Position numbers and translations under genes: made by a program
Virus record (IMG/VR): IMGVR_UViG_3300036826_000261
Location: 8,693 to 72,692 of that record
Strand: one strand, 5' to 3'
Length of the DNA stretch: 64,000 bases
From: a virus
The notes under the pieces: generated by a model
The model's input: the letters and a program-made list of their open reading frames with translations, nothing else
Databases searched by the model: none
What the model was told of the DNA's origin: nothing
In this document: piece after piece, positions 15,190 to 56,522 of the stretch
Numbering within the stretch: the stretch's first letter is position 1
How the letters are laid out: each line of letters opens with the position of its first letter

Positions 15190-16936
15190 TGCGTGGCGCA
15201 AGATTCTCGGCGAAACGCTGGCGGAAGAGCGCGCCAATTGGCAGCGCAGTCGCGAATTGTCGGAAGCGCGATCCGCGCAGATCATCGCCGAGCTGAAGAC
15301 GCAATCGATGCAGCTCGTCACCGAGCTGGCGACGCGCACGTTCGAGTTGGAGCGCAAGCTTGAAGCATTGGTGCATCAGAAGTTGTCCGATGCCGAAGTC
15401 ATGATAAAAGATCGCTTGTCCAACTTGCGCGATGGTGCGCCCGGCGAGAAGGGTGAGCGCGGCGAGCGCGGCGAGAAAGGTGATCCGGGTGGCATCGGGT
15501 TAACAGGGCCGCAAGGCTATGCCGGTGAACGCGGCGAAAAGGGTGAACGCGGTGCTGTAGGTGCGCCCGGGCCGCAAGGATCGCAGGGCGAGCGCGGCGA
15601 GAAGGGCGAGCGCGGTGACGTTGGTACTGTCGGGGAGACGGGCGAAAAAGGTGATCGGGGCGAGCGGGGCGAACCAGGAGAAAGAGGCGAACATGGCGAA
15701 AAAGGCGAGCAAGGCGAAAAAGGCGAGCAAGGCGAAAAGGGCGAGCGCGGCGAACAAGGACCGCGCGGTGAAGCGGGTACGCCCGGGCGGCAAGGCGAAA
15801 AAGGCGAAAAAGGCGAAGCGGGCGAGGACGGCAGCGACGGACTGACCATCATCGGACCCGAAGGCCCGTGCGGGCCTTCCGGTCCGCGTGGTGAGCGCGG
15901 CGAGACCGGGCGGGAAGGTCTGCGCGGTCAGCCGGGCGCAATGGGTCCGGTCGGCGGGCAAGGCCCGCGCGGCGAACCGGGCGAGCCCGGTGCACCGGGT
16001 GCGGATGGCCCGGCAGGTCCGGCAGGCTCGGTCGGTCCAAGCGGACCACCGGGCGAGTCCGGCGCACCGGGCGATATCGGCCCGATGGGTCTGCGCGGAC
16101 CTATGGGCGAGCGCGGTGAGCGCGGTGAGCGCGGCGCCAAGGGCGATCCCGGCGATATCGTGATCGGTCCGCAAGGGCCTGCAGGCGAACGTGGTGAGCG
16201 CGGCGCACCGGGCGCGCATGGTCCGACAGGTCCGGTCGGTCCACGCGGTGAACAGGGCAAGCCGGGGCGTGACGGAGTTGACGGAGTACGCGGCGCACCG
16301 GGCGCGCATGGTCCGACAGGTCCGGCTGGTCCGCGCGGCGAGCCGGGTCTACCTGGGCGTGACGGAGCTGACGGAGCGCGCGGCGCCGATGGCGCACGTG
16401 GCGCCGACGGCGCGCCGGGGCGTTTGCCGCCGGTCAAGCAGTGGCAAGCCGACGTCGTGTATTATGCCGGCGACGTGGTGAGCCACGAGCGCGGATCGTA
16501 TCAGGCGCTGAAAGACACCAGCCGGCAGCCGGGCCGTAATCACGATTGGATTTGCATCGCCAGCGGCGGCGTCGATGCACGGTCGCCGCATGTGCGCGGC
16601 ACCTATGATCCAACGGCCAGCTATCAGGCGCTCGACATCGTTGTCAGCAACGGCGGCAGTTTCATCGCCAGGAAAGACGATCCGGGCGAGCTGCCGGGCG
16701 ACGGCTGGCAATTGATGGCGCGGCAAGGCCAGCGCGGCGTTGCCGGCGAGAAGGGCGAACGCGGCGAGCCCGGCGCACCGGGAGCGAAAGGCGAGCCCGG
16801 CGAGGTGGTGTTCAAGGGCTGGACCCATGACTGGAAAAACTTCGTTGCCGTGCCGCTGATGGCCGATGGCAAGCGTGGTCCGACCTTGGAGCTGCGCGGT
16901 TACTTCGAGCAATTCCAGAAAGACACCGATGGCTGA
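15110..16936 (+). CDS. collagen-like (Gly-X-Y) fibre protein with N-terminal coiled coil and C-terminal CBM-like repeats
   Basis: About 100 Gly-X-Y triplets (about 15434-16420); W...VVYYAGDVVSH and Y.ALDIVV.NGGSFIA. Confidence 0.85.
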   Translation: MTMQPQSNGKADEFLLPPPESTDILLDAWRKILGETLAEERANWQRSRELSEARSAQIIAELKTQSMQLVTELATRTFELERKLEALVHQKLSDAEVMIKDRLSNLRDGAPGEKGERGERGEKGDPGGIGLTGPQGYAGERGEKGERGAVGAPGPQGSQGERGEKGERGDVGTVGETGEKGDRGERGEPGERGEHGEKGEQGEKGEQGEKGERGEQGPRGEAGTPGRQGEKGEKGEAGEDGSDGLTIIGPEGPCGPSGPRGERGETGREGLRGQPGAMGPVGGQGPRGEPGEPGAPGADGPAGPAGSVGPSGPPGESGAPGDIGPMGLRGPMGERGERGERGAKGDPGDIVIGPQGPAGERGERGAPGAHGPTGPVGPRGEQGKPGRDGVDGVRGAPGAHGPTGPAGPRGEPGLPGRDGADGARGADGARGADGAPGRLPPVKQWQADVVYYAGDVVSHERGSYQALKDTSRQPGRNHDWICIASGGVDARSPHVRGTYDPTASYQALDIVVSNGGSFIARKDDPGELPGDGWQLMARQGQRGVAGEKGERGEPGAPGAKGEPGEVVFKGWTHDWKNFVAVPLMADGKRGPTLELRGYFEQFQKDTDG

Positions 16937-41812: not shown

Positions 41813-42619
41813 ATGAAGTACAACTCGCCATGGAACGATCCGGACACCAACGATCCTTATGTCAACGGCCAGCCGGCGCAGGGCGTCGAAGGCAGCGTGA
41901 TTCCGGCCGAATCGATCGAGTACCCGCAGCGCGAGATCGTCAACACCATCGCGCAGAACGGTTTCTTTCCGACCAACAGCGACACCAATCAGCTCGGTCG
42001 CGCGGTGCAGCTCGATCTGTGCAACTTCGGGGTCGATTACGGCATCGCCAACGAAATGGCCGTGACGCTCGATCCGACGCCGCTCAACTATCATGTCGGT
42101 CTGAAGATTTTCATTCTGGTCGCGCAGGCGAACTCCGGCGCGACCGTGCTCAATGTTAACGGGCTCGGCGCGGTGCCGGTGCGGCATCCTGATTTGACCG
42201 AGCTGTCGCCGGGTGACGTGATCCCCGGCGGCATCGCGCTGGTCTATCACGACGGCACGCAATTCCAGCTCTTGTTCGGCGCCAAGTCGGCGGCGGGGCC
42301 GGCAGGACCGCAAGGCGCCACCGGACCGGCAGGAGCGACCGGCGCGACCGGCGCCACCGGCGCGACCGGCGCCAAGGGCGACAAGGGCGCGACCGGGCCG
42401 CAAGGCCCGTCAGGCGCACCGGCTTCGCTGATCGTCGGGCTCGGCGGCATCGGCTCGTATTTGTTCAACATCACCTATCTGGGCGTCTACGACGATTCGA
42501 GCCTGACCTACGCGATCAATCAACTGGGCTACGGCGGCACCTGGGCGCAGCACGGCATCGTGCAGCAAGGCTGGTTCTCCGGCGCGCTGGCCGAGTTCTT
42601 AGGCCAGAGGATCGCGTGA
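41813..42619 (+). CDS. tail fibre protein 1 (short collagen segment)
   Basis: YVNG.P..G..GS.IPA..IE.PQREIVN.I; N.GAT.LNVNGLG; GPQGATG repeats. Confidence 0.8.
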
Positions 42620-44149: not shown

Positions 44150-45432
44150 CCAGAAAAATTATCGGCGAACAACACCCCAACGTGCGGGCGGGCACCAGTC
44201 CGCCGCATCCTGCGCAAACCGATTCGACCGTGCCGGTCACCGACGTGGTGCAGATCGGTCCGCCGGGGCCGCCCGGCCCGAACGGTCCGCCGGGACCGCC
44301 CGGCCCGACTGGCGCGGTCGGGCAGACCGGTCCGCAGGGGCCGCAAGGCCCGCAGGGACCGCAAGGCCCGCAGGGCTCGCAAGGCCCGCAGGGACCATCC
44401 GGGCCGCCCGGCGGCCTCGGCGAAGCGCCGAGCGACAGCACGTCCTACGGCCGCAGAAACGCGGCGTGGTCGTCGGTCACCGAAGAGGCGCCGAACGACG
44501 GCCAGACCTACGGTCGCAAGAACAAGGCATGGGTGGTCGGCGGCGGCGGTGGCGCCACGGTCACCGCGTCGGATACGCCGCCGGGCTCGCCGAGCGCCGG
44601 CAGCCTGTGGTTCAACACAACCAACGGCCAGCTCTACATCTATTTCAACGACGGCACATCGTCGCAATGGGTGTTCGCGTCGGGTGGCGTGCAGAATCAA
44701 CCGCAGGTGCCGCGCGGCGCGCTCGGCGGGTTGACGCTGTCCACGGCGGGCAGTTCGGCGACGTTCACGGTGCAGCCCGGACGCGCTGCGGATTCCACCG
44801 CTGCATTGCTGATGAACCTCGCATCGGCGATGAACAAGACCACCAGCGCATGGGCGGCGGGCAGCGGCAACGGCGCGCTCGACACCGGCGCGATCAGCGC
44901 GGCGGCTTGGTACCATGTCTTTTTGATCATGAACCCGACGTCGGGCGCGGTCGATATCCTGATCTCGCTGTCGGCGACGGCACCGACCATGCCGTCCGGC
45001 TACACGCTGTTCCGGCGCATCGGCTCGATGCTGACCGCGTCGTCGCTGTGGGTGAAATTTTCGCAGCGCGGCGACGAATTTTTGTGGGATGCGCCGGTCG
45101 TCAACGCCAGCGCAGTCGCGTTCACCGTGACTGCGACATTGCTGGCGCTGGGTGTGCCGCCGGGGATTCAGGTCAACGCGTTCGGGCAGGTGCGCGCCGA
45201 CTACGCCACCAACGCGGCGACTTTCACGCTGTCATCGCCGGACATCACGGCGCCGGTGGTCGGCAGCGCCACGTCATCGTTGGTGGTCTCGGGTACTTCC
45301 ACCAACTCGGTCAGTTACTTCAACATCCGCACCAACACCGCGCAGCAAATCCGTTATCAGGCCAACGGCACCGGTCCGACCTTCAGCCTGGGCACGTTCG
45401 GCTGGATCGATCGTCGCGGCAAGGACGATTAG
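44146..45432 (+). CDS. collagen-containing fibre protein
   Basis: GPQ repeats, EAP.DG..YGRKN.AW, P...GSLWFNT..GQLYIY. Confidence 0.75.
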
Positions 45433-52486: not shown

Positions 52487-52528
52487 CGTCGCCGTAAACA
52501 ACCGTTTCAACCTTCCTCCCTAGACTTG

Positions 52529-52565
52529 AGCCGGGTGGCCCTCCAAGCGCCCGGCTTTCTTTTTT
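52529..52565 (+). terminator. intrinsic terminator ending the late operon
   Basis: AGCCGGG/CCCGGCT stem + TTCTTTTTT. Confidence 0.75.
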
Positions 52566-52670
52566 GCCTGCACGATGTTTTTGCCGGCGAAAAATTTTCT
52601 TGACTTTTCGCCAAACCCGTCGCTCGCTTCCCGGATTCGTAAAATCAAAATGCTAAAGGGAGAGAAGCAA

Positions 52671-53549
52671 ATGGCGAAAAAGGCACCCGTCAGTGAAATC
52701 ATCGAAATCCAAGCTATCGAAATGGCGTCGCTGGATTTCCATGTGGTCGGCACCAGCCCGTTCATCATGCATCGCTTCAGTCAGAAGGCGTGGCAGGAAT
52801 TGCTGCTGCCGTCGATCCGCGAAAACCGCGCTAGTCTCGAACAGAAGCTCAAGCATGATCCGTATGCAGAATTTCGTGGCGCGTTCTATCGCAACAGCAA
52901 TCCGCGCGCCAAGACGGCGTACCATATTCCAAACGGCGCGTTTCACGGCGCGATCGCCAGCGCCGCGCTCGACATGCCGGGTGCCAAGAAGGCGCAGATC
53001 GAGCGGTTGACCAAGATCACCAGCGTCAACATCGAACTGTATGGCATCCCGAAAATCTTTTGCAGCATGGTGCGTAACAGCGACATCTCGCGCACGCCAG
53101 ATGTGCGCACCCGGCCGATCTTCCCGCGCTGGGCGTGCACGGTTTCGGTGCGCTACGCGAAGAACGCGTTGACGGCCAAAGCCGTCGCCAATCTGTTCGG
53201 CGCGGCGGGCGAGATCATCGGCATCGGTGATTGGCGCGGTCAGAAGGGCGGACCGTTCGGCGCGTTCCGCACCAACGTGTCGGTGAACGATAAAGAGTTC
53301 AAGAGCATCTTGAAGGAAGGCCGCGTCGCGCAATTGAAAGCTTACGACAAACCGTTGTTCTACGATGAAGACACGGAAGAAATTTTAACGTGGTTCGCCA
53401 CCGAGGTGCGCCGCCGTGAGTTGGAAGGCAAGATGCGCAGCGATAACGTCAAGGAGTTTCGCGTTATCACCGAGCGCGGCAAGGAGCGCGGCAACGGCGA
53501 GTTGGTGAGCCTTGACGACAAGCGGCGGACCCGTCGAAAGGCCGCGTGA
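52671..53549 (+). CDS. stand-alone Cas7/RAMP-like RNA-binding protein (Vipr-like effector)
   Basis: VVGTSPFIMH first strand, IP..AF..AI..A, R.RP.FP.W, and C-terminal Gly-rich loop GIGDWR..KGGPFGAF typical of RAMP-fold proteins; no other cas genes in the window. Confidence 0.75.
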   Translation: MAKKAPVSEIIEIQAIEMASLDFHVVGTSPFIMHRFSQKAWQELLLPSIRENRASLEQKLKHDPYAEFRGAFYRNSNPRAKTAYHIPNGAFHGAIASAALDMPGAKKAQIERLTKITSVNIELYGIPKIFCSMVRNSDISRTPDVRTRPIFPRWACTVSVRYAKNALTAKAVANLFGAAGEIIGIGDWRGQKGGPFGAFRTNVSVNDKEFKSILKEGRVAQLKAYDKPLFYDEDTEEILTWFATEVRRRELEGKMRSDNVKEFRVITERGKERGNGELVSLDDKRRTRRKAA

Positions 53550-54043
53550 TGGCGAAAGCCACCAAACACGACCGCATCAAAGCGGCGTTGGAAGCGATCA
53601 GGCGCTCGCATCGCGGGCGCTTGACGGCGCGGGCCGTGGTCGAGGCGGCCAAAAATCCTAGGCACCCGTTGCACAGTGAATTTGAATGGAACAACCAGAA
53701 AGCAGCGGATCAGCAACGCTTGGAGCGTGCGCGCGAACTAATCAGATACGTCACGGTCGTGGTCGTTGATGCAACGCGTAAAGTCGAAACACGATTTTAT
53801 GCGCACGATCCGCGAACGCCGCATCGTGAAGGCTATGTCAGCATCTTGGAGATGAACCGCCGCGATGCTGAACAAGATGTGGTCAACGCTATCGCGATCT
53901 GTCAATCGACGATCGATCGCGCGCTCAGCAAAGCGGAATTTCTCAGCGCGAAGCATCGTGGTGTTTCACGATTGTTGAAAAATGCAGTTGCTACCCTTGC
54001 CGCCGCGCATGATCTGCTCGAAGGCTCGGCGGCAGCGGCGTGA
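53549..54043 (+). CDS. accessory protein coupled to the RAMP-like gene
   Basis: LT..AVVEAA..P.HPLH..FEW....AA...RL..AR.LIR motif; start overlaps the RAMP stop. Confidence 0.7.
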   Translation: MAKATKHDRIKAALEAIRRSHRGRLTARAVVEAAKNPRHPLHSEFEWNNQKAADQQRLERARELIRYVTVVVVDATRKVETRFYAHDPRTPHREGYVSILEMNRRDAEQDVVNAIAICQSTIDRALSKAEFLSAKHRGVSRLLKNAVATLAAAHDLLEGSAAAA

Positions 54044-54048
54044 AGTCA

Positions 54049-54269
54049 TAGGCATGGCAGGCTAGGCAAGGTGCGGCCCGGCCGGAGTAGGTTCGGTGCG
54101 GCAAGGCAGGCATGGCCCGGGAGACGCGGTGAAGCGTGTCCGTGATCTGGTAGCGTCGGGTAAGGCGGCGTTGGATGGGGTGAGGCGAGGCAGGCTTGGT
54201 CAGGTCTGACGAGACTGGGCGCGGTAGGTTTTGGCGCGGTACGGCAAGGCGTGATGCGGTAAGGCAGGC
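54049..54269 (+). ncRNA. GGY-NN pentamer array, block 1 (3 units)
   Basis: Starts TAGGCATGGCA; GGCA separators at 54056, 54105, 54189, 54263 (spacings 49/84/74 = 5n+4). Confidence 0.85.
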
Positions 54270-54527
54270 ATGGCCAGAAACACAGCGGATAAGGTTCTCG
54301 AAAACAAGTTGCGGCTGATCGCCAAACGGCGGGGTTTGTTTCTTTCGAAATCCCGTCGTCGCGATCCGTTTGCGCTCGACTTTGGTTATGAGTTGAGAGA
54401 CGCGCAACAGCACGTCATCGAAACAGCGTGCAGTCTTACTCGAATCGAAAACTTGTTAGCTCTCGGTCGGACGGGGCGGAAACGTTTAACAGTCGAAGGA
54501 TGGCGTCACATCATCCTTGGTAAGTAG
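54270..54527 (+). CDS. small basic protein embedded in the array
   Basis: ENKLRLIAKRRGL.L.KSRRRDP.ALDFGY; non-repetitive, lower-GC insert. Confidence 0.65.
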   Translation: MARNTADKVLENKLRLIAKRRGLFLSKSRRRDPFALDFGYELRDAQQHVIETACSLTRIENLLALGRTGRKRLTVEGWRHIILGK

Positions 54528-56488
54528 GCATGGCAGGCGTGGCCGGGCCGGGTTGTCCCCGGTGTGGCAGAGCATGGCAGCGCAGGGTTGACATGGCAGG
54601 GCAGGCAGGGTCCGTCGTGGTCGCGCGGGATTGGGCGGGGCAAGGCACGGCACGATGCTGGTCTGGCGAGGCGTGGCAGGCATGGCTGGATCAGGCGTGA
54701 CGAAGCTTGGTGTAGCTAGGCCGGGTGCAGTGTAGGCATGGCGAGGCAGGCGCGGCGGGACAAGGTCCGATATGGCGTGGCGCGGTCTGGTTCGGTCTGG
54801 CCGGGTTTGGCAGGCAAGGTGCGTCGAGGCCAAACATGGTGTGACAAGGTACGGCGCGGCCTGATCTGGGCTCGACTGGGCAGGCGCGGTGGGTTCTGGC
54901 TCGACATGGTTAGGCGAGGCCCGGTGATGCCCGGCATGTTGAAGTGCGTCCTGGCAGGCGTGGCGGGGGTGCGTGCGAGGCGGGACCGGGCAAGGTCGGG
55001 CACGTTATATGGTCTGGCTGGGCACGGCTTGGCGGGTCACGGCAAGGCACGGCCGGCAAGGTTTGTCCGGAACCGGTTTGGCTTGGCGAGATGCGATTAG
55101 GCGAGGCGAAGCGAGGCCGGCTAAGCGTGACTTGGTCGGGTAGACGTGGCCGGGCACGGTAGCGGCGTGGATCGGCCGGCGACGCTAGGCTTGTCGTCGA
55201 TCGGCATGACATGGCGCGGCACGGCGAGGCGTGGTTCGGCCGGCGCGATTAGGTGTGGTCGGAATCGGCATGGCTCGGTGTCGCGTGGTCTGGCGTGGCT
55301 CGGCTGGGCCGGCTGGCGGGATTTGGCTTGATGCGGTCAGGCAAGGTCCGGCCCGGATCGGCGCGGCATGGCCGGCGTGGTCTGGCTTGAAGTGGTTGGG
55401 ATTAGGCGTGGCGCGGTATGACGCGGTGAGGCAGGCGGGGAGTGGCTAGACGTGGCTGCGCGCAACAAGGTCGGTCAAGTCCTGGTTTAGGCGTGGTGTG
55501 ACGCTGTGAGGCAGGCAAGGCCCGGACGGGCAAGACCGGATTAGGCATGGCGATGCTGGGCCGGCGGGGCACGGTGGAGGCCCGGACGGGCACGGCCGGG
55601 CAAGGCGTGGCAATGCAAGGCAGGCAAGACTTGGCAGGGCGCGGCCCGGCGAGAAATGGTTTGGCGCGGCGCGGCAGGCATGGCAGGGCGATACATGGTC
55701 AGGCGAAGCACGGCACAGCAGGGCAGGCGGGACTGGGTGTTCTGGGCACGGCTGGGCACGGCCGAAGCATGGCCGGCGAGGCTTGTCCTGGCACGGCGGG
55801 GCTGAGGCGTGGCAGCGTTTAGGCGCGGCCGGCGAGGCTTGTCCTGATTCGGCGGGGCTCGGCTTAGGCGCGGCCGGGTCGGTCACGGCAAGGCAGGCAC
55901 GGCTAGGCGTGGCAGGGAGCGGCAACGCCGGGTCGGGCGTGGCTGGGCTAGGCGACGGCGAGGCGAGGCGTGGTGCGGCAGGCGCGGCATGACAAGGCGC
56001 TGTGAGACCCGGCTTGGCAGGGTGCGGTACGGCATGGCTCGGCAGCGCTAGGCTTGGCAGGCACAGGTGATGCGGCGCGCGACAAGGCGGGACAGGGCGA
56101 GGCCGGCGCGGCATGAAAAGGCGCGGCGCGTTCGGGTGCAGCGCGGCGGGGTTGCGGCAAGGCACGGCTCGGCAGGACCGGCGGGGCTGGGCGTGTCTGG
56201 GCACGGCTCGGCGCGGCACGGCACGGTCCGGCAACGCCGGCAGCGCTGGGCGAGACATGGCATGGCTTGGCGGGGCTGGACACGGTGAGGCGAGGCAGGC
56301 GCGATCTGGCGTGGTTTGGCGTGGCGGGGCGAGGTACGAGCTGGGCGAGGCGAGGCAGGCGTGGTCGGGCGCAACGCGATGTGGTGTGACTGGTCGCGGC
56401 TCGCTGCGGTACGGCCCGGCAGGCGGGACTGGGCGTTGCTGGATCAGGTTCGGCCCGGCATGGCTAGGCGTGGCAGGCGGCGCAGGCG
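54525..56488 (+). ncRNA. GGY-NN pentamer array, block 2 (about 30 units)
   Basis: Continuous 5-nt periodicity of GG(C/T)NN with GGCA/GGCC tetramer separators about every 45-85 nt; only low-complexity spurious ORFs. Confidence 0.9.
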
Positions 56489-56522
56489 CTGATTATCCGT
56501 TAGAAAAAAGGAATCCCAACTG

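What the first reader, a model, noticed from the sequence alone, without database searches (positions are those of the whole stretch)
54536..55306. Guides decoding to tyrosine-integrase catalytic motifs
Unit 54536-54599 gives L-I-x-L-L-I-L-T-G-Q-R-R-T (box I Arg region). Units 55178-55237 (D-T-S-V-A-M-I-E-T-N-Y-S) and 55242-55306 (H-D-T-S-T-T-E-I-E-R-T-Y-A) give the box II His..Tyr region, and the irregular unit 55119-55173 may be a third variant. Adjacent units hitting the same motif suggest duplication and diversification. Inference: targets are resident prophages, satellites or integrative elements.
Basis: inference. Interest (0 to 1): 0.8.

Follow-up and report, generated by a model that had tools for sequence, protein, structure and literature searches.

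The report
Phage VIPR guide against integrase genes
One unit of this soil phage's five-base repeat array is a guide RNA of the recently described VIPR system that spells the catalytic-arginine motif of integrase genes of other mobile elements, while the two neighbouring units said to spell the catalytic-tyrosine motif found no target.

Summary
The stretch lies in a 2.4-kb array of GGC-NN pentamers (54050-56490) downstream of a Cas7/RAMP-like gene and a conserved partner gene. Together these are a VIPR system, first described in 2026 preprints, of the "staggered array" kind.

**Unit 54536-54599: confirmed.**
- Its ten clean pentamers, read by the published skip-every-third-base rule, match 13 loci exactly (2 viral contigs, 11 alphaproteobacterial genomes).
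- All 13 are in frame on LL[I/M]LTGQRRT of Pfam Phage_integrase genes. About one chance hit was expected.
- With up to 2 mismatches there were 9 hits in 121 genomes, against 0 for the reversed pattern.
- A natural allele of the unit in another soil metagenome extends the match to 25 of 26 bases (IVKLLILTGQRRT).

**Units 55178-55237 and 55242-55306: not confirmed.**
- No exact sub-pattern target turned up in viral or metagenome collections.
- No match with up to 3 mismatches fell in an integrase in 251 to 652 genomes.
- Scores on about 110 integrase genes were at the shuffled background.
- The two units are related to each other (13 of 24 guide bases), most likely by tandem duplication.

The system is known, and recombinase targeting is in print for a serine recombinase. 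This scan has already noted integrase-spelling VIPR guides in other genomes. It is a new member of a known kind.

The parts
52671..53549 (+). vipr: Cas7/RAMP-like protein, 292 aa by the public gene call (the open frame begins at 52575)
   Evidence: AlphaFold2 model pLDDT 80.2, pTM 0.74. Foldseek top hits are Csm3/Cas7 backbone subunits, 77 matches at E<=0.001. The only PDB sequence hit is 'SUSP1 Vipr protein' 36pp_D, E 0.0046. 671 homologues at E<=1e-5. No Pfam family.
53546..54043 (+). vap-like partner gene, 165 aa, overlapping the vipr stop codon
   Evidence: A homologue lies directly downstream of the vipr homologue in 17 of 17 related viral loci (tblastn E from 1e-34 to 3e-8). No Pfam family and no PDB sequence match. 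Its function was not tested.
54050..56490 (+). vrRNA array: GGY-NN pentamers on the gene strand, cut by 33 GGC[A/C]|GGC register shifts into units of about 9-16 pentamers (staggered architecture)
   Evidence: (GC skew about 0.3). The fig. S18 legend of bioRxiv 10.64898/2026.04.26.720920 describes vrRNAs overlapping by 1 nt. 16 of 17 related loci carry such arrays next to vipr.
54270..54527 (+). 85-aa open frame that interrupts the array; unknown, perhaps not a gene
   Evidence: Listed. No Pfam family. No homologue in the 17 related loci.
54536..54585 (+). guide core of unit A: 10 pentamers whose NN bases spell LL[I/M]LTG[Q/H]RRT in antisense
   Evidence: Exact gapped matches in 13 loci, all in frame in PF00589 genes. 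Unchanged in contigs of runs X3, X4 and X5.
54586..54599 (+). 3' part of unit A: out of register in this genome (4-mer GGTT, then 2 pentamers)
   Evidence: In run X4 one inserted base and five substitutions here restore 13 clean pentamers, which read IVKLLILTGQRRT.
55119..55173 (+). irregular unit B (one 4-mer and one 6-mer inside); target unknown
   Evidence: Shares its last two pentamers (GT, TC) and an early TA with units C and D by eye, but only 5 of 22 guide bases in the 5' register.
55178..55237 (+). unit C: 12 pentamers; target not found
55242..55306 (+). unit D: 13 pentamers, a diverged duplicate of C; target not found
   Evidence: In runs X5 and X6 one guide base and two scaffold bases differ.

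Best explanation
The stretch is part of the guide array of a phage-encoded VIPR system: Vipr (a RAMP protein), a vap-like partner, and a staggered vrRNA array.

By the published mechanism, one Vipr protomer binds each GGY of the transcript and presents the two following bases. These pair with double-stranded DNA while every third base is skipped, and the bound complex blocks transcription.

- **Unit 54536-54585** is a guide whose 20 read bases are codon positions 1 and 2 of LL[I/M]LTGQRRT, the box I motif with the first catalytic arginine of P4-type tyrosine integrases. Because the wobble base is never read, this one guide fits integrase genes that are only 29-48% identical to each other. Silent mutations cannot escape it.
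- **Likely use** (inferred by analogy with phage SUSP1): silencing the integrase of resident satellites, islands or prophages, or of co-infecting temperate phages, of an alphaproteobacterial host, so that they cannot excise or integrate while the phage grows.
- **Units 55119-55306** are three neighbouring, related units. C and D are clearly duplicates. Their targets are unidentified, so the catalytic-tyrosine reading is unproven.

Shown here: the anatomy, the RAMP fold, the gene synteny and the target match. Inferred: transcription and processing of the array, binding, silencing, and the biological purpose.
For: **Array anatomy**
- Pentamer period, G skew, register-shift borders and unit sizes of 9-16 pentamers.

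**Proteins**
- The Vipr model hits Csm3/Cas7 subunits. The only PDB sequence hit is SUSP1 Vipr.
- The vap-like gene is syntenic in 17 of 17 related loci, and 16 of 17 have arrays.

**Published rule and precedent**
- Results and methods sections of 10.64898/2026.04.26.720920.
- Passages of 10.64898/2026.04.26.720927.
- Sections 6 and 17 and passages of 10.64898/2026.10.15.759431.

**Target of unit A**
- The exact 10-unit pattern hits 2 viral contigs and 11 genome contigs, all Alphaproteobacteria or labelled Pseudomonadota. About 1 chance hit is expected in 596 Gb (my arithmetic: 1.2e12 positions / 4^20).
- 13 of 13 hits are in frame on LL[I/M]LTGQRRTE, and 13 of 13 ORFs score over the PF00589 cut-off.
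- The motif aligns with TGQR of lambda integrase structures.
- All 10 skipped positions vary among the 13 sites, and the proteins are a median 35% identical.
- With up to 2 mismatches: 9 hits in 8 of 121 genomes of one order, against 0 for the reversed pattern. 8 of the 9 hits are in integrases.
- On 90 integrase loci only unit A beats 300 shuffles, among the five array units plus one allele that were scored. In one search all 27 units of 16 pentamers or fewer were scored on the first 30 of those loci, and again only unit A beat the shuffles.
- The run X4 allele gives 25 of 26 bases at four of the loci.

**Other**
- No self-target in the phage and no integrase in the phage itself.
Against: - No RNA data exist for this phage (no RNA holder listed), so transcription, processing at the register shifts and loading onto Vipr are all assumed.
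- The sequence link to a proven Vipr is weak (E 0.0046 over 50 residues). The published vap families were not compared.
- The host is unknown, and none of the 13 target-bearing genomes is shown to be a host.
- In this genome the unit is out of register after 10 pentamers, and its last units do not fit the target.
Exact 9- and 10-unit sub-patterns gave 0 hits, or single hits outside integrases. Whole units with up to 3 mismatches gave 0 of 251 genomes each, plus 2 non-integrase hits in 401 genomes.
- No other guide of the array hits the elements that carry the targeted integrases. This differs from SUSP1, where many guides converge on one satellite.
Confidence: 0.85

Rival explanations
1. Units C and D (and perhaps B) are working guides against the catalytic-tyrosine region of a tyrosine-recombinase subfamily that is rare or absent in the collections I could search.
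For: - The top-scoring site for unit C on 90 integrase loci is an in-frame GTSVKMIEDHYG near the end of the Phage_integrase match in a G003 integrase (L119), at 16 of 24 bases.
- One of the tied 16-of-26 sites for unit D is GHKGRTATEETYA in another integrase (L129).
- Unit A shows that this array does aim at integrase catalytic motifs.
- Other reports of this scan describe box II guides in other phages (not tested here).
- Unit C is unchanged in the contigs of four soil runs (no difference listed at 55194-55237; one of two short contigs per run differs somewhere in 55066-55193, position not shown).
Against: - Scores of 16 of 24 and 16-17 of 26 are what shuffled guides reach (p 0.84 and 0.95; p 0.35 and 0.51 when restricted to in-frame windows behind box II).
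- No site with up to 3 mismatches in 251 genomes for either unit.
- No exact 10-unit match in the metagenome collection.
- 16 chosen bases of unit C have no site in 121 genomes.
- The C/D likeness is explained by duplication.
Confidence: 0.3
2. Units B, C and D are guides against something other than integrases, or are decaying duplicates with no present target. The integrase-like reading of C and D comes from the freedom in decoding (one or two residues per dinucleotide).
For: - All searches for integrase targets were negative.
- Unit B has internal 4-mer and 6-mer breaks.
- Adjacent units in this array are often similar, which suggests duplication as the source of new units.
- The only near matches were a GAPDH gene end, short ORFs, and a 31-residue gene end on an AT-richer phage contig with no integrase domain.
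Against: - No alternative target was found either.
- The array's confirmed guides aim at conserved catalytic motifs, so an unsampled conserved target remains plausible.
Confidence: 0.6
3. The match of unit A to integrase box I is a coincidence of a G-rich simple repeat with a GC-rich coding motif, and the region is not a guide array at all.
For: The array is low in complexity and no expression data exist.
Against: - 13 of 13 exact hits fall on one protein motif in frame, where about 1 chance hit is expected.
- The reversed pattern gives 0 hits against 9, and none of 200 to 300 shuffles reaches the score.
- A natural allele adds three further matching codons.
- A RAMP-fold gene and a conserved partner sit beside such arrays in 16 of 17 relatives.
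Confidence: 0.02

Closest known systems
VIPR systems (Vipr + vap + vrRNA), type II of Escherichia phage SUSP1 and a Pseudomonas fulva prophage (bioRxiv 10.64898/2026.04.26.720920; structures in 10.64898/2026.04.26.720927)
   Same: - Phage-borne.
- A lone RAMP-fold protein with one partner gene.
- RNA made of GGY-NN pentamers, 9-16 per guide.
- Natural targets fit the 1-nt-skip rule, with the skipped base on the codon wobble position.
- No self-targets.
   Different: - The Vipr here is 292 aa against 202 aa, and only marginally alike in sequence.
- There is no conserved 3' tail or pseudoknot between guides. About 30 units abut, separated only by a 1-nt register shift.
- The array is far longer than the four vrRNAs of SUSP1.
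Staggered vrRNA arrays (fig. S18 legend of 10.64898/2026.04.26.720920)
   Same: Adjacent vrRNAs overlap by one nucleotide. Here GGCAG or GGCCG shares its last G with the next GGC, which shows up as the GGC[A/C]GGC 4-mer shift every 45-98 nt.
   Different: I read only the legend. Processing sites are not known for this phage.
SUSP1 vrRNA4 against the excision recombinase of F5 satellites (bioRxiv 10.64898/2026.10.15.759431)
   Same: A phage guide wobble-aligned on active-site codons of the recombinase of a rival integrated element. Escape would therefore need a change in the catalytic core.
   Different: - That recombinase is a serine recombinase, and the footprint is six units (18 bp) within one satellite family of E. 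coli.
- Here the target is box I of tyrosine (P4-type) integrases, 10-13 units, and it fits integrases of several alphaproteobacterial families that are only about 35% identical.
- The word 'tyrosine' occurs 0 times in that paper's main text, and 'integrase' 0 times in the discovery paper's main text.
Class 1 CRISPR-Cas backbone (Cas7/Csm3 filaments on crRNA)
   Same: RAMP fold. One protomer per fixed-length RNA segment, with bases flipped out at regular steps (paper passages).
   Different: No CRISPR repeats, no other cas genes, and no contiguous spacer. The period is 5 nt, with 2 read bases.

Membership tests
VIPR system | Vipr protein: a minimal RAMP (RRM core, G-loop, thumb) related to Cas7 | tested here: met
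   AF2 model pLDDT 80.2. 77 Foldseek matches at E<=0.001, led by Csm3/Cas7 subunits, Cas7-11 and type VII Cas7. The only PDB sequence hit is SUSP1 Vipr, E 0.0046. The individual G-loop and thumb residues were not mapped.
VIPR system | A vap gene next to vipr | tested here: inconclusive
   A conserved 165-aa partner lies directly downstream in this phage and in 17 of 17 relatives. It has no Pfam or PDB match and was not compared with published vap1-6.
VIPR system | vrRNA of tandem GGY-NN pentamers (at least 4, typically 9-16) beside vipr, on the gene strand | tested here: met
   The same holds in 16 of 17 relatives.
VIPR system | Natural targets obey the 1-nt-skip rule at >=80% NN match, mostly wobble-aligned in coding sequence | tested here: met
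   Unit A: 20 of 20 bases in 13 loci, in frame. Its run X4 allele: 25 of 26. Not met for units C and D.
VIPR system | No self-targeting of the source contig | tested here: met
   Units A, C and D score at the shuffled background on the window outside the array. The first array unit scores 17 of 22 on the phage's own vipr, below 80%.
VIPR system | vrRNAs are expressed, processed and bound by Vipr; the complex binds DNA and represses transcription | not testable with these tools
   No RNA run is listed for this DNA.
Tyrosine recombinase / phage integrase (the target of unit A) | Phage_integrase catalytic domain over Pfam's cut-off, with the guide footprint on box I (the TGxR arginine) | tested here: met
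   13 of 13 ORFs are PF00589 over the cut-off, and 10 of 13 also have Arm-DNA-bind_3. The footprint aligns with TGQR of lambda integrase chains 1z19/1p7d. That this arginine is the catalytic Arg212 of lambda Int is recalled, not tested.
Tyrosine recombinase catalytic-tyrosine (box II) motif as the target of units C and D | The gapped guide sequence occurs in integrase genes, in frame at the His..Tyr region, above background | tested here: not met
   Best scores are 16 of 24 and 16-17 of 26 on 90 integrase loci, with p 0.84 and 0.95 against 300 shuffles. In-frame windows behind box II give p 0.35 and 0.51. No hit with up to 3 mismatches in 251 genomes for either unit. The sample is limited: integrases of about 12 genomes and one bacterial order.

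The most novel reading that the evidence does not exclude
A single VIPR guide acts as a family-wide silencer. By reading only codon positions 1-2 of the catalytic-arginine box, it fits P4-type tyrosine integrases that are only about 35% identical and spread over several alphaproteobacterial families. One soil phage could then immobilise many unrelated satellites, islands and prophages with one RNA.

The array renews itself by tandem duplication and point divergence of units, with alleles in natural populations that lengthen or shorten a guide's fit to its target. The run X4 allele of unit A and the C/D pair would be examples.
Probability: 0.45. Interest if true: 0.55.

Novelty: new member of a known kind. 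Interest (0 to 1): 0.4.

Why it matters
The finding adds a natural, database-verified example of VIPR targeting outside the enterobacterial and Pseudomonas models.

- **Different recombinase superfamily.** The target is a tyrosine integrase, not the published serine recombinase. The guide sits on catalytic-core codons and fits very divergent genes because the wobble base is skipped.
- **Support for a wider idea.** It backs the view that phages use these systems to pin rival integrated elements in the chromosome. It also suggests that some guides are broad-spectrum rather than element-specific.
- **Array evolution.** The allele in a second soil sample that extends the match by three codons, and the related neighbouring units, give a first look at how such arrays change in nature.

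It does not reveal a new kind of system.

Tried and rejected
**Readings I started with and dropped.** I first read the region as a non-coding G-rich repeat (an R-loop origin, or a protein-binding RNA like the TRAP or CsrA sponges). I dropped that once the RAMP fold, the synteny and the target match were in hand.

**Searches that led nowhere**
- blastn of the flanking genes against sequenced phages: no match.
- Whole-unit exact patterns for C and D in viral contigs: 0 hits each.
- Nine-unit sub-patterns:
  - C units 1-9: 1 hit, in a 56-aa frame of an AT-rich contig.
  - C units 4-12: 1 hit, at the very end of a 37-kb viral contig. Only 31 C-terminal residues of that gene are present; 21 of 24 bases fit if the three upstream codons are counted by hand.
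  - For that record I found no PF00589 domain. The neighbouring genes are a phosphoesterase gene and a frame with repeated KWWTNG motifs, which I take from memory to be homing-endonuclease-like.
  - Pfam, tblastn against phages and the protein atlas gave nothing for the 31 residues. I left this hit as chance or undetermined.
  - D units 5-13 and D units 1-9: 0 hits.
- Ten-unit patterns of C and D in metagenome contigs: 0 hits each.
- C with up to 3 mismatches: 2 hits in 401 genomes of the class, a GAPDH gene end and a 49-aa frame; 0 in 251 genomes of the order. D units 2-13: 0 in 251 genomes.
- A 16-base sub-pattern of unit C: 0 in 121 genomes. I had over-specified it by fixing the last C, so it also excluded the GTSVKMIEDHYG integrase it was meant to collect.
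- None of this array's units recurs in the arrays of the 17 related loci.
- No unit other than A fits the loci that carry the targeted integrases.
- D scores 19 of 26 on a related phage locus, p 0.07, not wobble-aligned in the long frame: dropped.
- Rfam: no ribozyme or other family inside the array.
- No RNA holder is listed among the sequencing runs. The contigs laid are DNA only.
- The supplementary data of the three preprints (target tables, type assignments, figures) were closed or not held. They may already list tyrosine-integrase targets or this clade.

**Not done**
The background for the collection scans is therefore my arithmetic, plus the reversed-pattern control of the genome search.
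- No fold prediction for the vap-like protein.
- No complex prediction.
Full report
**What is there**

The finding lies inside a 2.4-kb stretch (about 54050-56490) with no convincing long open frame and a GC skew near +0.3. Its base sequence repeats with a period of five: lag-5 identity is 0.455. Successive GGC triplets are exactly 5 nt apart in 108 of 255 cases, against 3.9% in the rest of the window. No other 500-nt window of the 64 kb shows this period.

A dynamic-programming segmentation into GGY-NN pentamers shows runs of 6-28 clean pentamers, interrupted by 4-mers and now and then by 6-mers. The commonest interruption is GGC[A/C] followed by GGC. It occurs 33 times, and apart from three longer gaps the copies lie 45-98 nt apart.

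An 85-codon open frame (54270-54527) interrupts the array. It has no family and no counterpart in relatives.

**What system it is**

A look-up of earlier notes of this scan pointed me to VIPR systems. I then read the primary preprints.
- The discovery paper (bioRxiv 10.64898/2026.04.26.720920; Results, methods sections 20 and 27, and passages) describes phage-borne loci with a minimal RAMP protein (Vipr), one accessory gene (vap), and RNAs of 9-16 pentamers in which GGY is constant and NN variable.
- The NN bases pair with DNA while one base is skipped per unit. Natural targets are therefore mostly coding sequences with the skipped base on the wobble position, and binding represses transcription.
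- A figure legend in that paper describes 'staggered' arrays in which neighbouring vrRNAs overlap by one nucleotide. That is what a GGCAG or GGCCG pentamer sharing its last G with the next GGC looks like.

I tested the defining features here.
- The gene upstream (52671-53549 by the public gene call; the frame opens at 52575) has no Pfam family. An AlphaFold2 model built from 38 homologues (pLDDT 80.2) matches Csm3/Cas7 backbone subunits of type III, VII and I CRISPR complexes (77 Foldseek matches at E<=0.001).
- Its only sequence match in the PDB is the 'SUSP1 Vipr protein', at a marginal E of 0.0046.
- The next gene (53546-54043) has a homologue directly behind the vipr homologue in 17 of 17 related viral loci. 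16 of those 17 loci have G-skewed period-5 arrays beside the genes.
- The genome is a 72.7-kb virus record rated 98% complete, with no integrase of its own.
- Expression could not be examined, because only DNA runs hold this sequence.

Reverse-complementing each unit and taking the two variable bases of each pentamer as codon positions 1-2 reproduces all three peptide strings. One caveat: each dinucleotide allows one or two residues (ATx is I or M, CAx is H or Q, GAx is D or E, AAx is N or K, AGx is S or R).

**Unit 54536-54599: box I, confirmed**

Its first ten pentamers are in clean register. As a gapped pattern (20 read bases) they match exactly on 2 IMG/VR contigs and 11 contigs of the one-genome-per-species collection. 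For 596 Gb and both strands I expect about one chance match.

The 11 records are titled Aquibium, Beijerinckiaceae, Xanthobacteraceae (two contigs of one MAG), Aestuariivita, Thioclava, Rhodospirillales, Acetobacteraceae, two uncultured Alphaproteobacteria and one 'Pseudomonadota' MAG.

- All 13 matches are in frame on LL[I/M]LTGQRRTE.
- All 13 open frames score over Pfam's cut-off for Phage_integrase, and 10 of 13 also carry the P4-type Arm-DNA-bind_3 domain.
- The motif aligns with ..VVTGQRVGD.. of lambda integrase structures. From memory, that is the box with the first catalytic arginine.
- The proteins are only 29-48% identical to one another, apart from one identical and one 75% pair. Each of the ten skipped positions shows 2-4 different bases among the 13 sites. 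The guide therefore reads just what is invariant.

Controls:
- With up to 2 mismatches the pattern has 9 sites in 8 of 121 genomes of the order of one target genome. The same pattern read backwards has none.
- All nine sites decode to LL[ILM]L[TA][GA]QRR.
- Six of the seven sites other than the two exact G003 matches lie in PF00589 + Arm-DNA-bind_3 genes, and one lies in a frame without a family.
- On 30 loci with Phage_integrase matches, all 27 array units of 16 pentamers or fewer were scored, and unit A alone exceeded its shuffles (0 of 200). On 90 such loci I scored five units plus one allele, and again unit A alone exceeded its shuffles (0 of 300).

An unplanned confirmation came from laying contigs of four other soil metagenomes on the array.
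- The ten core pentamers are unchanged in runs X3, X4 and X5. X6 has three unlisted differences somewhere in 54330-54829.
- In run X4 the out-of-register 3' part of the unit carries one inserted base and five substitutions. Together these restore a clean 13-pentamer unit.
- The three added units read I/M-V-K/N, so the allele spells IVKLLILTGQRRT. It fits four of the target loci at 25 of 26 bases. Two of these integrases sit directly beside a tRNA-Arg gene.

**Units 55178-55237 (C) and 55242-55306 (D): box II, not confirmed**

- Whole-unit patterns: 0 hits in viral contigs.
- Nine-unit halves: 0 hits for D and two single hits for C. Neither is in a recognisable integrase.
- Ten-unit patterns: 0 hits in the metagenome collection for both.
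- Whole units with up to 3 mismatches: 0 of 251 genomes for each. For C there were also two unrelated hits in 401 genomes of the class.
- On 90 integrase loci the best scores are 16 of 24 and 17 of 26, as shuffled guides reach (p 0.84 and 0.95).
- Restricting to in-frame windows behind the HxxR box does not help (p 0.35 and 0.51).

- The best site for C is an in-frame GTSVKMIEDHYG near the end of the Phage_integrase match in one integrase.
- One of D's tied best sites is GHKGRTATEETYA in another integrase. So a resemblance to real tyrosine-motif variants exists.
- It is no stronger than chance in my sample, and the power is limited: unit A's exact targets occur in only 11 of about 186,000 species genomes.

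C and D share 13 of 24 guide bases in the same register, which is rank 3 of 435 unit pairs. The four most similar pairs in the array are all neighbours. It also means the two units are not independent evidence for one motif.

The irregular unit B shares only end units with them: 5 of 22 bases in the 5' register.

**How it most likely works**

By the published mechanism, Vipr protomers coat each transcript unit and the NN bases pair with the target strand. The filament on the integrase coding sequence then blocks transcription.

In SUSP1 such a guide on the active-site codons of a satellite's serine recombinase keeps the satellite from excising. By analogy, this phage would keep P4-type elements of an alphaproteobacterial host locked in the chromosome, or stop rival temperate phages from integrating.

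That purpose, the host, and the expression of the array are all inferred. Unlike SUSP1, no second guide of this array fits the elements that carry the targeted integrases.

**Novelty**

The system and the principle are in print: recombinase active-site codons, wobble-aligned. The published case is a serine recombinase. 'Tyrosine' occurs 0 times in the competition paper's main text and 'integrase' 0 times in the discovery paper's main text. Their supplementary tables were not available to me.

This scan has already reported integrase-spelling VIPR guides in other genomes: 20 notes in at least 16 genomes hold the search words, which I did not test. So this is a well-supported new member of a known kind. 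Two modest extras are the breadth of one guide across divergent integrases and the natural allele that extends it.

Noticed in passing
window 52500-52571 (+): Sub-threshold Rfam match to the alphaproteobacterial sRNA family suhB/mmgR (RF00519): 32.8 bits against a gathering score of 41, E 0.00056. It lies immediately upstream of the vipr frame. It may hint at a Rhizobiales-type host or a regulatory RNA, or it may be chance.
   Followed up: no
window 54050-54104 and 52863: The first array unit fits the vipr gene of related phages (19 of 22 bases at L020:6187; 0 of 100 shuffles reach it), and the phage's own vipr less well (17 of 22 at 52863). This agrees with an earlier report that it is aimed at rival VIPR systems.
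   Followed up: partly
window 54745-54873, and joint 54110 to 56031: The array differs between soil samples. In run X6 the units around 54749-54873 carry dozens of substitutions and small indels. In runs X5 and X6 one contig each joins 54110 to 56031 with 626 other letters in between, i.e. an array version with different content.
   Followed up: no
L022 about 5676 (array upstream of the vipr homologue of a related viral contig): One unit decodes in antisense to ..VRLLV[F/L]TG[C/W]RA.., which also looks like integrase box I. A TGxR string is expected about twice by chance among the 292 runs parsed, so this is untested.
   Followed up: no
window 54193-54262: This 14-pentamer unit has its best in-frame site on EPTIAAMLGHSRGT behind box II of an integrase (L054): 18 of 28 bases, p 0.03 before correcting for 27 units tested.
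   Followed up: no
L001 3898-5168 and 8191-11706: The viral contig with an exact unit A target carries two integrase genes close together. It also has short frames matching only parts of portal and head-protease/major-head families, so it looks like a decayed or composite integrated element.
   Followed up: partly
window 54270-54527 (+): An 85-codon open frame sits inside the array, preceded by an array-like AAGGCAGGC before its ATG. It has no family and no homologue in 17 related loci, so whether it is a gene is unclear.
   Followed up: partly
window 15640-16386, 42299-42396, 44256-44396: Period-9, -18 and -27 tandem repeats of the collagen-like (Gly-X-Y) kind inside long frames, as often seen in phage tail fibres.
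   Followed up: no
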